From Escherichia coli (lineage in GTDB: Bacteria > Pseudomonadota > Gammaproteobacteria > Enterobacterales > Enterobacteriaceae): DNA of 64,000 nucleotides. The stretch is from NCBI RefSeq assembly GCF_017348835.2, contig NZ_CP071375.1, one strand, 5' to 3'. The position numbers were made by a program, and so were the translations under genes. The notes under the pieces were generated by a model, which did not search any database, was not told where the DNA came from, and saw only the letters and a program-made list of their open reading frames with translations. The stretch's first letter is position 1, and each line of letters begins with the position of its first letter. Of the stretch, positions 19,240-24,839 are shown one piece after another.

Positions 19240-20046
19240 TTACCCCTGACGCGCCGCTTTCGCCATCATCTTCTTCAGCGCATGAGAAACCGCAACAAAC
19301 CCAAAGGTGGCGGTCACCATCGTTGCCGCGCCAAATCCAGATGCACAATCCATCCGCTTTGGTCCTTCCGCCGTGGCTTTCATCGCACACACCGTGCCGT
19401 CTGACTGCGGGTACACCAATGCTTCGGTAGAGAACACGCAATCCACGCCGAGCTTACCTTTACTGTTTTTCACTACGCCAAAATCGCTTTTCAGGCGCTC
19501 ACGCAACTTCGCCGCCAGCGGGTCCTGAATCGTTTTCGCCAGATCGGTAACCTGAATCTGCGTTGGGTCAATCTGCCCACCCGCGCCACCGGTCGTGACC
19601 AGCGGGATTTTATTGCGCCGACAATAAGCAATCAGCGCCGCTTTGGGTCGTACACTATCAATGGCATCAATCACGTACGAATAACCGGCACTCATATATT
19701 GCGCTACGTTATCCGGCGTCACGAAATCATCCACCACCGTTACACGGCACTCCGGGTTAATCTGGCGAATACGCTCCGCCATTACTTCCGCTTTTGCCTG
19801 CCCGACGTTATCGCGCAGAGCGTGAATTTGCCGATTGGTATTGGTGACGCACACATCATCCATATCGATAAGCGTGATTGCGCCAATCCCCGTGCGCGCC
19901 AGCGCTTCCGCCGCCCAGGAACCGACACCGCCAATACCGACCACACAAATATGCGCGTCAGCAAACAGTTGCAGCGCTTTTTCACCATACAGACGCGCTG
20001 TGCCACCAAAACGCTGACGCCATGCATCACTAATTACCACAGACAT
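19240..20046 (-). CDS. tcdA: tRNA threonylcarbamoyladenosine dehydratase TcdA (CsdL/YgdL), 268 aa
   Basis: 268-aa ThiF/MoeB-like E1 fold ORF (GIGGVGSWAAEALARTG nucleotide-binding motif); matches TcdA. Confidence 0.9.
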   Translation of the reverse strand: MSVVISDAWRQRFGGTARLYGEKALQLFADAHICVVGIGGVGSWAAEALARTGIGAITLIDMDDVCVTNTNRQIHALRDNVGQAKAEVMAERIRQINPECRVTVVDDFVTPDNVAQYMSAGYSYVIDAIDSVRPKAALIAYCRRNKIPLVTTGGAGGQIDPTQIQVTDLAKTIQDPLAAKLRERLKSDFGVVKNSKGKLGVDCVFSTEALVYPQSDGTVCAMKATAEGPKRMDCASGFGAATMVTATFGFVAVSHALKKMMAKAARQG

Positions 20047-20068
20047 AGCACCTCAGAATAAAAAGGGC

Positions 20069-20248
20069 GAGGTTATCCCTCACCCTAAACGCATAAATGC
20101 CTGATGCGCTACGCTTATCAGGCCTACATAACTCCTGCAATATTTTGGATTTGCATGATTTGTAGGCCGGATAAGGCGTTCACGCCGCATCCGGCATGAA
20201 CAACGCGCACTTAGTCAATAATCAGGATGTGAGGTTACCCCTCACCCT
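20069..20248. repeat. REP/BIME cluster (two REP palindromes) bracketed by an 18-bp direct repeat
   Basis: Seen in sequence: REP-like GCCTGATGCGCTACGCTTATCAGGCCTAC (20099-20127) and GTAGGCCGGATAAGGCGTTCACGCCGCATCCGGCA (20162-20196); flanking direct repeats GAGGTTATCCCTCACCCT (20069-20086) and GAGGTTACCCCTCACCCT (20231-20248). Confidence 0.7.
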
Positions 20249-20283
20249 GTCATATCCGTAAAAACGGCATACAGAATATCACA

Positions 20284-21381
20284 TCAGCCACTAAAGACGT
20301 TACCTGCGCCCGGAGCCGTTTTCAGCACCCAAACCCGTCCATAGTGGTTGTACCAACCTGCGCGGTGTCCGGCTTCCGGCCCGATCCCTTGATAGATATC
20401 GAAGTGTTGGCCTTTGATTGCGCCACCGACATCCAGCGCCACCATCAGACGCAATTCGTACTGACCATTAAATTTGCCGTTATTATCCAGCAGCGGCACT
20501 TCTGCCAGCAAGGTTGTACCTGGCGGAATAATGGAACGATCAGAGGCAACAGAAGCACGGCCAACCAGCGGCACCGCACTTGCCCCTTTCACCGGTGCAA
20601 AAGATTGAGGTTTAAAGAAGACGAAAGACGGGTTCTGTTCCAGCAGCTCGCGAACCTCGGCTTCACTGTGTGTTTCGCCCCAGTGACGAATCGCCTGCAT
20701 CGACATGTCTTCTTTTTTCACTTCGCCACGGTCGATCAGCACCTTACCAATGCTGCGATAGGCATGACCGTTTTTCCCTGCATAGCTGAAAAAGTTAAGC
20801 GGACTGCCATCACCAAAGTCGATATACCCACTACCCTGCACATCCATAATGAAGTTATCCATCAGAGAGTTGCTGTAAGCGAGGATGTATTTATCGCCCA
20901 ATGCCCCTGCGTAGATCTCCGCACGAGACGGCAGACGACCACGTTTTGGCGGCATACGGTAAATAGGATACTGGAACTCGCCCTGGCGGGTATGGCGCGC
21001 CTGAATTACCGGCGTGTAATAGCCTGTAAACTGCACGTTACCATAGTTGTCGGCACCTTCCATCTGCCAGGCATCAATGCCGAACTGGCGCATATTGCGG
21101 GTATCACCGCCTGCGCGCAGCCACTCTTGCACCGCGTTATAAACATTACTCTGGTTGCCATACAGACGCGGTGACGAATTACGGATATGGTTAATTTGCT
21201 CGGCAAAATCACCGGCGTTAATCGGCGCGCCAACGGCATCTGGCTGGTTCACCAGAGAGAAAGGCTGGGTAAATTTCCCGTCTTTATATTGCTGTCCGCG
21301 ATCGGTTGGTTTGGAAGAGCAGGCGGCAAGCATTGCCACAACCGTGCCCATAAGAAGGTACTTTACCCAACGTCCTTTCAT
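20284..21381 (-). CDS. mltA: Membrane-bound lytic murein transglycosylase A (lipoprotein), 365 aa
   Basis: Start at ATG 21379-21381 gives MKGRWVKYLLMGTVVAMLAACSSK (lipoprotein signal) and the 365-aa MltA; the track's longer 398-aa form is an upstream in-frame extension. Confidence 0.9.
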   Translation of the reverse strand: MKGRWVKYLLMGTVVAMLAACSSKPTDRGQQYKDGKFTQPFSLVNQPDAVGAPINAGDFAEQINHIRNSSPRLYGNQSNVYNAVQEWLRAGGDTRNMRQFGIDAWQMEGADNYGNVQFTGYYTPVIQARHTRQGEFQYPIYRMPPKRGRLPSRAEIYAGALGDKYILAYSNSLMDNFIMDVQGSGYIDFGDGSPLNFFSYAGKNGHAYRSIGKVLIDRGEVKKEDMSMQAIRHWGETHSEAEVRELLEQNPSFVFFKPQSFAPVKGASAVPLVGRASVASDRSIIPPGTTLLAEVPLLDNNGKFNGQYELRLMVALDVGGAIKGQHFDIYQGIGPEAGHRAGWYNHYGRVWVLKTAPGAGNVFSG

Positions 21382-24778: not shown

Positions 24779-24790
24779 GCGATGAAAATC

Positions 24791-24831
24791 GCCGGATGCG
24801 GCAGGCGTAACACTCGTGCGTCGCATCCGGC
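24791..24831. repeat. REP palindrome downstream of argA and recD (convergent gene ends)
   Basis: Seen in sequence: GCCGGATGCG…CGCATCCGGC inverted repeat. Confidence 0.6.
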
Positions 24832-24839
24832 AATTACGT

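What the first reader, a model, noticed from the sequence alone, without database searches (positions are those of the whole stretch)
20069..20248. REP/BIME element bracketed by an 18-bp direct repeat between tcdA and mltA
Two REP palindromes lie between tcdA and mltA, and the whole unit is flanked by GAGGTTATCCCTCACCCT (20069) and GAGGTTACCCCTCACCCT (20231), each of which can itself form a short hairpin. Direct repeats flanking a REP cluster could be a composite BIME architecture or a footprint of REP-associated transposase (RAYT) mobilisation.
Basis: seen in the sequence. Interest (0 to 1): 0.3.

Follow-up and report, generated by a model that had tools for sequence, protein, structure and literature searches.

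The report
BIME-1 repeat flanked by duplicated terminator hairpin
The two 18-base repeats are two copies of a conserved terminator hairpin lying on either side of a known E. coli repeat element (BIME-1); half of E. coli strains lack the element and one hairpin copy, and the same pattern recurs at other BIME-1 sites, so it looks like an insertion footprint.

Summary
GAGGTTAYCCCTCACCCT occurs at 20069 and 20231 and nowhere else in the window.

Each 18-mer is part of a stem-loop on the gene strand (minus): a 23-nt stem-loop at 20064-20086 and a 27-nt copy with a 2-nt bulge at 20223-20249. The copy next to tcdA keeps the T-run and sits 14 nt before the tcdA start codon. Between the copies lies an ordinary BIME-1 (RIP) element at 20087-20222: Y REP, L linker and Z1 REP.

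The hairpin is specific to this locus and is not a BIME motif. Twenty non-Escherichia Enterobacteriaceae carry one copy and no BIME-1. E. albertii and two divergent Escherichia lineages carry the element with two copies.

Of 5,425 E. coli genomes, 2,756 carry the element and 2,669 are exactly 162 bp shorter, with one hairpin. The commonest short allele carries markers of the mltA-side copy, which indicates deletion between the repeats.

The pattern is general. At four of four loci where both alleles were read, the empty allele has one local hairpin and the filled allele has hairpin, BIME-1, hairpin. Nine of 19 BIME-1 loci have significant flanking repeats.

The element is already known. The hairpin-sized target duplication was not found in the literature I could reach. 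A role for RAYT is untested.

The parts
19240..20046 (-). tcdA coding sequence (downstream gene in the direction of transcription). ATG at 20046-20044, Shine-Dalgarno GAGG at 20054-20051.
   Evidence: ORF list. RefSeq annotation of identical or near-identical genomes. Coordinates checked.
20056..20063 (-). T-rich tail (TTTTATTC on the minus strand) directly after the tcdA-side hairpin.
   Evidence: Terminator scan. Conserved as TTTTTA in 23 species representatives.
20064..20086 (-). Hairpin copy H2, next to tcdA: AGGGTGAGG-GATAA-CCTCGCCCT. It corresponds to the ancestral single hairpin.
   Evidence: Terminator scan: 9 pairs, 6 of them G-C, followed by a T-run. RNA fold -17.2 kcal/mol, z = -5.25. 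Single-copy orthologue in 20 non-Escherichia species.
20087..20097 (-). Truncated right-end motif of the BIME-1 (TTTATGCGTTT on the minus strand). The family consensus is GTTTTGCGTTTGTCATCAGTCTC.
   Evidence: Comparison with paralogous BIME-1 copies. The same truncation is present in E. albertii and Escherichia sp. E1V33.
20098..20127 (-). Y-type REP palindrome (minus strand: GTAGGCCTGATAAGCGTAGCGCATCAGGCA).
   Evidence: Pattern scan. Inverted-repeat finder, pairs I2 and I6. BIME-1 profile match. Coordinates checked.
20128..20161 (-). L linker of the BIME-1, the region that carries the IHF site in the family. This copy reads GCAAATCCAAAATATTGCAGG, two substitutions away from the consensus GCAAATTCAATATATTGCAGG.
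   Evidence: Rfam RF02751 (ES036/CssrF) match at 20120-20162, minus strand, 46.5 bits against a gathering score of 37.6. Alignment with paralogues.
20162..20196 (-). Z1-type REP palindrome (minus strand: TGCCGGATGCGGCGTGAACGCCTTATCCGGCCTAC).
   Evidence: Pattern scan. Inverted repeat I3. BIME-1 profile match.
20197..20222 (-). Left-end motif of the BIME-1 (minus strand: ATTATTGACTAAGTGCGCGTTGTTCA). The family consensus is CAGATTGTTGGCAAAGTGCGCGTTGTTCA. In complete elements it is the inverted counterpart of the right end.
   Evidence: Paralogue comparison. Terminal inverted repeat AGAYTGNTGRCAAA seen in complete copies.
20223..20249 (-). Hairpin copy H1, next to mltA: CAGGGTGAGG-GGTAA-CCTCAC(AT)CCTG.
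   Evidence: RNA fold -14.7 kcal/mol, z = -2.9. Absent from empty alleles and from outgroups.
20087..20248 (.). The 162-bp segment (BIME-1 plus one hairpin copy) that is missing from 2,669 of 5,425 E. coli genomes. Because of the repeat, 20069-20230 is an equivalent description.
20284..21381 (-). mltA coding sequence (upstream gene). Stop codon at 20286-20284.

Best explanation
The feature is a BIME-1 (RIP/RIB-type) repeat element of about 136 bp: a Z1 REP, an L linker and a Y REP, with terminal motifs. It lies between two direct copies of a 23-nt host stem-loop.

That stem-loop is the old, conserved mltA-tcdA intergenic terminator, which also forms the leader just upstream of tcdA. It is a hairpin followed by a T-run, 14 nt before the tcdA start codon. 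In other Enterobacteriaceae it is single-copy.

Step 1 (inferred). In an Escherichia ancestor, the BIME-1 integrated at the foot of this hairpin and the whole stem-loop was duplicated. This is a target duplication whose length is set by the hairpin, not by a fixed number of bases. The simplest geometry is one nick at the 3' foot of the hairpin on each strand, joining of the element, and fill-in.

Consequence (shown). mltA is still followed by a hairpin. tcdA keeps an intact hairpin, T-run and Shine-Dalgarno leader.

Step 2 (supported). The two 23-bp repeats flank a strongly palindromic insert. They are therefore a substrate for precise deletion, by slippage or recombination. That deletion removes exactly 162 bp and regenerates a single hairpin, which gives the roughly 50:50 dimorphism in E. 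coli.

The enzyme for step 1 is unknown. The REP-associated transposase (RAYT, also called TnpA-REP) is a candidate only.

Any present-day function is the ordinary one proposed for BIME/REP elements: structured RNA between genes that affects mRNA 3'-end stability or read-through. This was not tested here.
For: Identity as BIME-1. A profile built from 9 paralogous BIME-1 copies matches the K-12 orthologue over its full length, E = 4e-30. Rfam ES036 matches the L linker above its gathering score.

The repeat is local sequence. The hairpin occurs at one place per genome. The 18-mer occurs only at this locus among 184 loci totalling 1.4 Mb, which include about 90 loci that carry a BIME-1.

Ancestral state. 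Twenty non-Escherichia species representatives have a single hairpin, most of them in an intergenic region of about 70-110 nt. The genera include Citrobacter, Phytobacter, Salmonella, Enterobacter, Leclercia and Lelliottia. All share the layout AGGGTGAGG-loop-CCTCACCC-TTTTTA..TCTGAGGT-NNN-ATG.

Age of the insertion. E. albertii, Escherichia sp. E1V33 and a divergent 'E. coli' lineage all have hairpin, BIME-1, hairpin. All three share the same truncated right junction, TTTATGCGTTT|AGGGTGAGG.

Dimorphism. 2,756 genomes are filled and 2,669 are empty, together accounting for all 5,425 genomes with a match. The difference is exactly 162 bp.

Deletion origin of empty alleles. The commonest empty haplotype carries the loop GGTAA and the linked flank base T. 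Both are markers of copy H1 in filled alleles. Copy H2 and the nearest outgroups have the loop GATAA. All three empty variants read can be derived from existing filled alleles by a single crossover.

Generality. At tcdA-mltA, metE-ysgA, mog-satP and yjeJ-epmB, the empty allele has one local stem-loop and the filled allele has stem-loop, BIME-1, stem-loop. Nine of 19 independent BIME-1 loci have a flank-to-flank direct repeat above the 99th percentile of mismatched-flank controls, where 0.2 would be expected. At loci where both element ends are complete, the repeats start at the same offsets from the REP core.

MITE-like ends. Complete elements have 14-nt terminal inverted repeats, AGAYTGNTGRCAAA.

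A second case at the same hairpin. Kosakonia sp. S29 has a different REP-bearing insert with the same end motifs at this hairpin, again between two hairpin copies.
Against: About half of the BIME-1 loci surveyed show no clear flanking repeat. Two of these, fepA-entD and gcd-cueO, have complete element ends. Duplication is therefore not obligatory, or it decays.

The window's element has a truncated right end, so its right junction is not a pristine insertion junction.

No enzyme is known that makes hairpin-length target duplications. The single-strand mechanism of the IS200/IS605 relatives of RAYT predicts none (PMC2817692).

No de novo insertion event was observed. Duplication at the moment of insertion is inferred only from comparing alleles.

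Flanking haplotypes of filled and empty alleles are intermixed. Recombination, rather than repeated deletion, could explain part of the distribution, and some empty alleles could be retained ancestral alleles.

E. fergusonii and other Escherichia species were not sampled.
Confidence: 0.7

Rival explanations
1. The 18-mer is a standard building block of BIMEs, an outer motif of a composite BIME. On this reading the flanking repeat is simply part of the repeat family's architecture.
For: BIMEs do have conserved outer motifs. In this element, 20087-20097 and 20197-20222 are such motifs.
Against: The hairpin and the 18-mer occur only at the tcdA-mltA locus: one place per genome in 4,322 genomes. 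None was found in about 90 BIME-1-bearing loci or in 250 kb of K-12. The hairpin exists as a single copy, without any BIME-1, in 20 other species. Other BIME-1 copies are flanked by different, locus-specific hairpins.
Confidence: 0.02
2. The E. coli polymorphism is an insertion polymorphism. Empty alleles are the retained ancestral state, and the filled allele arose or entered later and is spreading by recombination.
For: All non-Escherichia outgroups are empty. One empty type (E26, MRSN352231) has a hairpin identical to copy H2 and to the C. sedlakii hairpin. Flanking haplotypes are intermixed, as frequent recombination would produce.
Against: E. albertii and two divergent Escherichia lineages are filled and share the same junctions, so the insertion predates E. 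coli. The commonest empty haplotype, about 1,000 genomes, carries the derived loop base of H1 and its linked flank base. That combination is expected from deletion and not from an allele that was never occupied.
Confidence: 0.15
3. The hairpin duplication was not made by the insertion event. Either a tandem duplication existed first and the BIME-1 landed between the copies, or a unit of hairpin plus BIME-1 was amplified in tandem and then partly lost. The amplification could use the rolling-circle-like, 3'-OH-primed route proposed for TnpA-REP.
For: A tandem array of hairpin, BIME-1, hairpin, BIME-1, hairpin exists at locus L162. Tandem units of REPIN plus flanking sequence are described in Pseudomonas (PMC3116915). 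Ton-Hoang et al. propose primed amplification and report TnpA-REP cleavage hundreds of bases away from a BIME (PMC3333891).
Against: No allele with two hairpins and no BIME-1 was seen at any of the four loci where both alleles were read. The repeat abuts the element ends at the same offsets in independent loci with complete ends. This fits a single coupled event better than two separate ones.
Confidence: 0.12
4. The two hairpins are similar by chance or by convergence: two independent GC-rich stem-loops in one intergenic region.
For: Intergenic regions often contain several stem-loops.
Against: The expected number of chance matches is 0.01 per window. The loops have the same orientation and 21 of 23 bases are shared. 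The indel between alleles equals the repeat spacing exactly, at 162 bp.
Confidence: 0.01

Closest known systems
BIME-1, also called RIP or RIB (one Y and one Z1 REP separated by the long L linker with an IHF site; Gilson, Bachellier, Boccard, Oppenheim)
   Same: The composition and order are the same: Z1 REP, 34-nt L linker, Y REP, outer end motifs, extragenic, single copy, at the 3' end of a gene. It matches a BIME-1 profile over its full length. Presence/absence of whole BIME-1 elements among E. coli isolates is already reported (Bachellier 1997, as summarised in PMC1187871).
   Different: This copy has a truncated right-end motif and two substitutions in the consensus IHF-site region. The feature under study, a duplicated locus-specific terminator stem-loop on both sides, is not part of the published definition in any text I could read.
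MITEs (miniature inverted-repeat transposable elements with terminal inverted repeats and target-site duplications)
   Same: It is short and non-coding and folds into a long hairpin. Complete BIME-1 copies have 14-nt terminal inverted repeats. They are flanked by direct repeats of target DNA, and empty sites hold one copy.
   Different: The duplication is 19-27 bp (about 37-45 bp at one locus), varies between loci and coincides with a whole stem-loop, instead of a fixed 2-10 bp. No DDE transposase with matching ends is known. A review states that REPs lack MITE signatures (PMC3184786).
REPIN/RAYT system (paired inverted REPs thought to be mobilised by the REP-associated Y1/HUH transposase)
   Same: There are two inverted GTAG-tagged REPs with a spacer. 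E. coli K-12 encodes rayT, which is itself flanked by REP/BIME sequences. TnpA-REP cleaves and rejoins single-stranded BIME DNA in vitro (PMC3333891).
   Different: The related IS200/IS605 transposition makes no target duplication. The mobile unit implied here extends beyond the REPs to the outer end motifs. RAYT involvement is not shown.
Precise excision of transposons by recombination between their target duplications, stimulated by inverted repeats (Tn10/Tn5 literature; cited from my own knowledge)
   Same: Direct repeats flank a palindromic insert, and deletion restores the original single-copy target. This matches the 162-bp loss and the chimeric hairpin in the commonest empty allele.
   Different: The repeats here are 23 bp rather than 9 bp and are themselves hairpins. 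The rate and genetic requirements were not measured.
Rfam RF02751, ES036 (CssrF) sRNA
   Same: The L linker at 20120-20162 on the minus strand matches above the family's gathering score. The matched strand is the strand on which mltA and tcdA are transcribed.
   Different: The family model covers only 43 nt of the linker. It says nothing about the flanking hairpins, and expression at this locus was not examined.

Membership tests
BIME-1 / RIP | One Y-type and one Z1-type REP in inverted orientation | tested here: met
   Y REP at 20098-20127 and Z1 REP at 20162-20196. A profile built from 9 paralogues matches the orthologous K-12 copy over model positions 1-100, E = 4e-30.
BIME-1 / RIP | Long conserved L linker between the REPs | tested here: met
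   The 34-nt linker aligns with paralogues. Rfam ES036 scores 46.5 bits against a gathering score of 37.6.
BIME-1 / RIP | Functional IHF binding site in L | tested here: inconclusive
   This copy reads GCAAATCCAAAATATTGCAGG, two substitutions from the family consensus GCAAATTCAATATATTGCAGG. IHF binding cannot be tested with these tools.
BIME-1 / RIP | Extragenic, single (not tandem) copy at the 3' end of a transcription unit | tested here: met
   It lies between the mltA stop codon (20284-20286) and the tcdA start codon (20044-20046), as one copy.
MITE | Terminal inverted repeats | tested here: inconclusive
   Complete family members have the 14-nt ends AGAYTGNTGRCAAA. In the window copy only the left end survives, and the right end is truncated to 11 nt.
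MITE | Target-site duplication of fixed, short length | tested here: not met
   The duplication is present, but it is 19-27 bp (up to about 45 bp), differs between loci and equals the local stem-loop.
MITE | Cognate transposase whose element has the same ends | not tested
   No search for an autonomous element with these ends was made.
REPIN mobilised by RAYT | Two inverted GTAG-tagged REPs and a RAYT gene in the genome | tested here: met
   GTAGGCC begins both REPs, on opposite strands. K-12 rayT (b0228) is annotated and is flanked by REP/BIME matches.
REPIN mobilised by RAYT | Insertion by IS200/IS605-like single-strand transposition, which leaves no target duplication | tested here: not met
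   A 23-bp duplication flanks the element here, and comparable ones flank it at 8 or more other loci. The expectation of no duplication is taken from PMC2817692.
Intrinsic (Rho-independent) terminator | G+C-rich stem-loop immediately followed by a T-run | tested here: met
   This holds for H2 only: 9-pair stem followed by TTTTATTC. H1 lacks the T-run. Termination in vivo cannot be tested here.

The most novel reading that the evidence does not exclude
BIME-1 elements behave like miniature transposons whose integration duplicates an entire target stem-loop, usually a terminator. The target duplication is therefore defined by DNA structure and not by a fixed length. This implies staggered cuts at the two 3' feet of a hairpin or cruciform, possibly made by the REP-associated transposase. 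It would be the first sequence footprint of how REP/BIME elements spread. It would also explain why they sit harmlessly at the 3' ends of genes: both neighbouring genes keep a hairpin.
Probability: 0.35. Interest if true: 0.7.

Novelty: already known. Interest (0 to 1): 0.4.

Why it matters
How REP/BIME elements spread is still described as unknown. [quoted passage not shown]

This locus, together with at least eight others, shows a reproducible footprint. The footprint has three parts: terminal inverted repeats, a duplicated target stem-loop, and empty alleles that hold exactly one stem-loop.

If this footprint has not been described before, it turns the open question into concrete tests. One is whether TnpA-REP, or another nuclease, cuts at the feet of terminator hairpins. 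Another is whether new insertions duplicate the hairpin.

For annotation, it explains a common 162-bp indel between mltA and tcdA that splits E. coli roughly in half. It also shows that the conserved tcdA leader hairpin is preserved in both alleles.

The element itself is ordinary.

Tried and rejected
1. I first suspected that the stretch after H1 (GATTATTGACTAAGTGCG) was a diverged copy of the T-run and ribosome-binding region, which would have made the duplication about 40 bp. This is rejected: paralogues show the stretch is the BIME-1 left-end motif.

2. A model in which a cruciform is resolved into hairpin-capped ends. This is rejected because it predicts one copy with an inverted loop, whereas both copies have loops in the same orientation, GGTAA and GATAA.

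3. A sequence consensus at the inferred cut sites, such as C|T. None is consistent across loci (my reading).

4. A viral-contig scan for more BIME-1 copies gave 0 hits.

5. The NC_000913.3 annotation lists no REP or RIP features, so the catalogue name of this element could not be confirmed.

6. Bachellier et al. 1997 (PMC1207841) and Boccard & Prentki 1993 (PMC413762) are not held in the library. I therefore cannot exclude that they already describe the flanking hairpin repeats.

7. At the katE-chbG locus (L117), empty alleles could not be identified, because paralogous BIME matches outranked the flank matches.

8. Flanking-haplotype comparison of 10 alleles did not separate recurrent deletion from recombination.

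9. One fold used the wrong E. albertii coordinates and was ignored.

Full report
**The observation**

They are the only matches in the window even with 3 mismatches allowed, and chance would give 0.01. They lie between tcdA (19240-20046) and mltA (20284-21381), both on the minus strand.

Read on the gene strand, each 18-mer is part of a larger stem-loop.
- H2, next to tcdA, is AGGGTGAGG-GATAA-CCTCGCCCT at 20064-20086. It is followed by TTTTATTC, then the Shine-Dalgarno sequence and the ATG. The terminator scan picks it up, and it folds at -17.2 kcal/mol (z = -5.3).
- H1, next to mltA, is the same stem-loop with a 2-nt bulge at 20223-20249. It has no T-run and folds at -14.7 kcal/mol.

**What lies between the repeats**

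The interval 20087-20222 is a BIME-1 (RIP) element. It consists of a truncated right-end motif, a Y REP, a 34-nt L linker, a Z1 REP and a left-end motif.

A profile built from nine paralogous BIME-1 copies matches the orthologous K-12 copy over its full length, E = 4e-30. The Rfam family ES036/CssrF matches the linker above its gathering score, on the minus strand.

**The repeat is local sequence, not a BIME part**

A 42-nt probe over the hairpin finds one place per genome in 4,322 E. coli genomes. The exact 18-mer occurs only at tcdA-mltA orthologues among 184 fetched loci. Those loci total 1.4 Mb and include about 90 BIME-1-bearing loci and 250 kb of K-12.

**Polymorphism**

Of 5,425 complete E. 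coli genomes with a match, 2,756 carry the filled allele. The other 2,669 carry an allele exactly 162 bp shorter, with one hairpin and no BIME-1.

**Polarity**

I fetched the tcdA neighbourhood from species representatives across Enterobacteriaceae. Twenty non-Escherichia species have a single hairpin, most of them in an intergenic region of about 70-110 nt. They include Citrobacter amalonaticus and C. sedlakii, Phytobacter massiliensis, Salmonella enterica arizonae, several Enterobacter species, Leclercia and Lelliottia.

All share a nearly invariant layout: AGGGTGAGG-loop-CCTCACCC-TTTTTA..TCTGAGGT-NNN-ATG. The single hairpin is therefore ancestral. It also forms the conserved leader directly upstream of tcdA.

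E. albertii, Escherichia sp. E1V33 and a divergent lineage labelled E. coli all have hairpin, BIME-1, hairpin. All three share the same truncated right junction. This places the insertion before E. coli diverged.

In E. albertii, H1 differs from H2 at six positions. Two of these are paired changes that preserve the stem. That hints that H1 is kept as a hairpin, though the evidence is one genome.

**Origin of the empty E. coli alleles**

Empty alleles come in several hairpin variants.

The commonest accounts for about 8 of the 20 evenly spaced rows that showed empty alleles, roughly 1,000 genomes. It has the loop GGTAA and the flank base T. Both are found in H1 of filled alleles. H2 and the nearest outgroups have the loop GATAA.

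A hairpin with the 5' part of H1 and the 3' context of H2 is what deletion between the repeats would produce. The other two variants read can also be derived from existing filled alleles by one crossover.

Flanking haplotypes of filled and empty alleles are intermixed. This fits recurrent deletion, recombination, or both, and I could not separate the two.

**Generalisation**

A metagenome scan for the L motif gave 78 usable matches, from about 14 distinct BIME-1 loci. I added loci from 250 kb of K-12 and from paralogous matches in E. coli genomes.

The family consensus, from left to right:
- left end: CAGATTGTTGGCAAAGTGCGCGTTGTTCA
- Z1 REP, L linker, Y REP
- right end: GTTTTGCGTTTGTCATCAGTCTC

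The 14-nt termini are inverted repeats of each other.

Just outside these ends, most loci carry a locus-specific stem-loop on both sides, in direct orientation. I scored this by local alignment of the left flank against the right flank, with mismatched flank pairs as the control. Nine of 19 loci exceed the 99th percentile of the control, where 0.2 would be expected. Two more show visibly decayed copies at the same position. Where both element ends are complete, the repeats start at the same offsets from the REP core.

At four of four loci where I could read both alleles, the empty allele has one stem-loop and the filled allele has stem-loop, BIME-1, stem-loop. The loci are tcdA-mltA, metE-ysgA, mog-satP (467 genomes filled) and yjeJ-epmB (3,250 filled; the rest 160 bp shorter).

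The repeat equals the stem-loop to within 1-2 nt at nearly all positive loci. At L089 it extends to about 37-45 nt.

The pattern is not universal. fepA-entD and gcd-cueO have complete ends but no flanking repeat.

Kosakonia sp. S29 has a different REP-bearing insert with the same end motifs at this same hairpin, again between two hairpin copies.

**Mechanism**

What is shown: BIME-1 presence and hairpin duplication go together, and loss removes the element plus one copy.

What is inferred: the duplication arises at integration, as a target duplication whose length is set by the hairpin. Nicks at the 3' foot of the hairpin on each strand, followed by joining and fill-in, would produce it. A cruciform-resolution model is excluded because both loops keep the same orientation.

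On the enzyme, TnpA-REP cleaves single-stranded BIME DNA with low sequence specificity, can cut hundreds of bases away from a BIME, and performs strand transfer (PMC3333891). However, the related IS200/IS605 pathway makes no duplication (PMC2817692). RAYT is therefore a candidate and no more.

Precise deletion between direct repeats that flank a palindromic insert is classical behaviour (my own knowledge of transposon precise excision). It explains the dimorphism.

**Function**

The duplication leaves mltA followed by a hairpin. It leaves tcdA with its intact hairpin, T-run and Shine-Dalgarno leader, which may be why the insertion is tolerated.

No promoter-like site was found in the region. 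The hairpin sits 14 nt from the tcdA ATG, so tcdA is probably expressed by read-through from upstream. This is an inference.

Any effect of the BIME-1 on mRNA stability or attenuation is the general one proposed for BIMEs. It was not tested here.

**Comparison with what is known, and novelty**

The element is a known kind in the best-studied genome. Presence/absence of whole BIME-1 elements among isolates is already reported (Bachellier 1997, as summarised in PMC1187871).

None of the papers I could read mentions duplicated target hairpins flanking BIME-1. One review states that REPs lack MITE signatures. The two most relevant older papers are not held in the library, so priority is uncertain.

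I rate the feature as already known, with moderate interest because of the footprint.

Noticed in passing
window 24789-24832: A single REP-like palindrome (GCCGGATGCGGCAGGCGTAACACTCGTGCGTCGCATCCGGC) lies between the convergent genes argA and recD. It is the only other REP in the window.
   Followed up: partly
window 20044-20086, and L012-L064 just upstream of tcdA: The hairpin, T-run, Shine-Dalgarno and ATG arrangement upstream of tcdA is nearly invariant in stem sequence and spacing across 23 species representatives of at least 9 genera. Only the loop varies. That is unusually strong conservation for a terminator, and it suggests a role as a tcdA leader or attenuator.
   Followed up: partly
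L027 (Kosakonia sp. S29) about 1770-2000; L021 (Phytobacter diazotrophicus) about 1840-2000: A different REP-bearing insert with the same terminal motifs (GCAGATTTTTGACAAAG ... GGTTGTCAGCAATATCAG) sits at the same mltA-tcdA hairpin. Kosakonia has two hairpin copies. In Phytobacter the left copy has decayed.
   Followed up: partly
L056 and L061 (Pseudocitrobacter), L026 (UBA5654), upstream of tcdA: Another palindromic repeat family (CCCTCTCCCTGAGGGAGAGGG ... GGGAGAGGGTTAGGGTGAGGG) abuts or overlaps the hairpin's 5' arm. The GGGTGAGGG arm may be shared with that repeat family.
   Followed up: no
L162 2650-3220: A tandem array of hairpin, BIME-1, hairpin, BIME-1, hairpin with identical 22-nt hairpins (AAGGGCCGCGAAAGCGGCCCTT). 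Only the last copy is followed by a T-run. This looks like unequal crossing-over between the flanking repeats.
   Followed up: partly
L190 (hypothetical gene-glpD intergenic region, E. coli O157:H7): The target hairpin arm AGGCCAGATTG resembles the BIME-1 end CAGATTG, and the left junction reads AGGT|CAGATTG. This may be microhomology between the element end and the target.
   Followed up: no
window 20120-20162 (minus strand): Rfam ES036/CssrF sRNA matches the BIME-1 L linker above its gathering score. naRNA4 matches the Z1 REP below threshold.
   Followed up: partly
L181 47450-48335 (K-12 rayT region): The K-12 REP-associated transposase gene rayT (b0228) is flanked by several partial BIME/REP matches, the arrangement called a REPtron in the literature.
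   Followed up: no
L167: A metagenome contig whose left flank belongs to one BIME-1 locus and whose right flank is that of the L089 locus. It is probably an assembly chimera formed across the repeat.
   Followed up: no
window 20256-20270 (minus strand): A small 4-bp hairpin, CCGTTTTTACGG, lies about 15 nt after the mltA stop codon. It is present in both filled and empty alleles.
   Followed up: no
L011 (E. albertii), about 140-165 nt upstream of the tcdA ATG: The mltA-side hairpin copy AGAGTGAGA-AATAA-TCTCGCTCT differs from the tcdA-side copy by two compensatory base-pair changes, and 13 nt of the BIME-1 left end are missing. This suggests selection to keep H1 folded, though it rests on a single genome.
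   Followed up: partly
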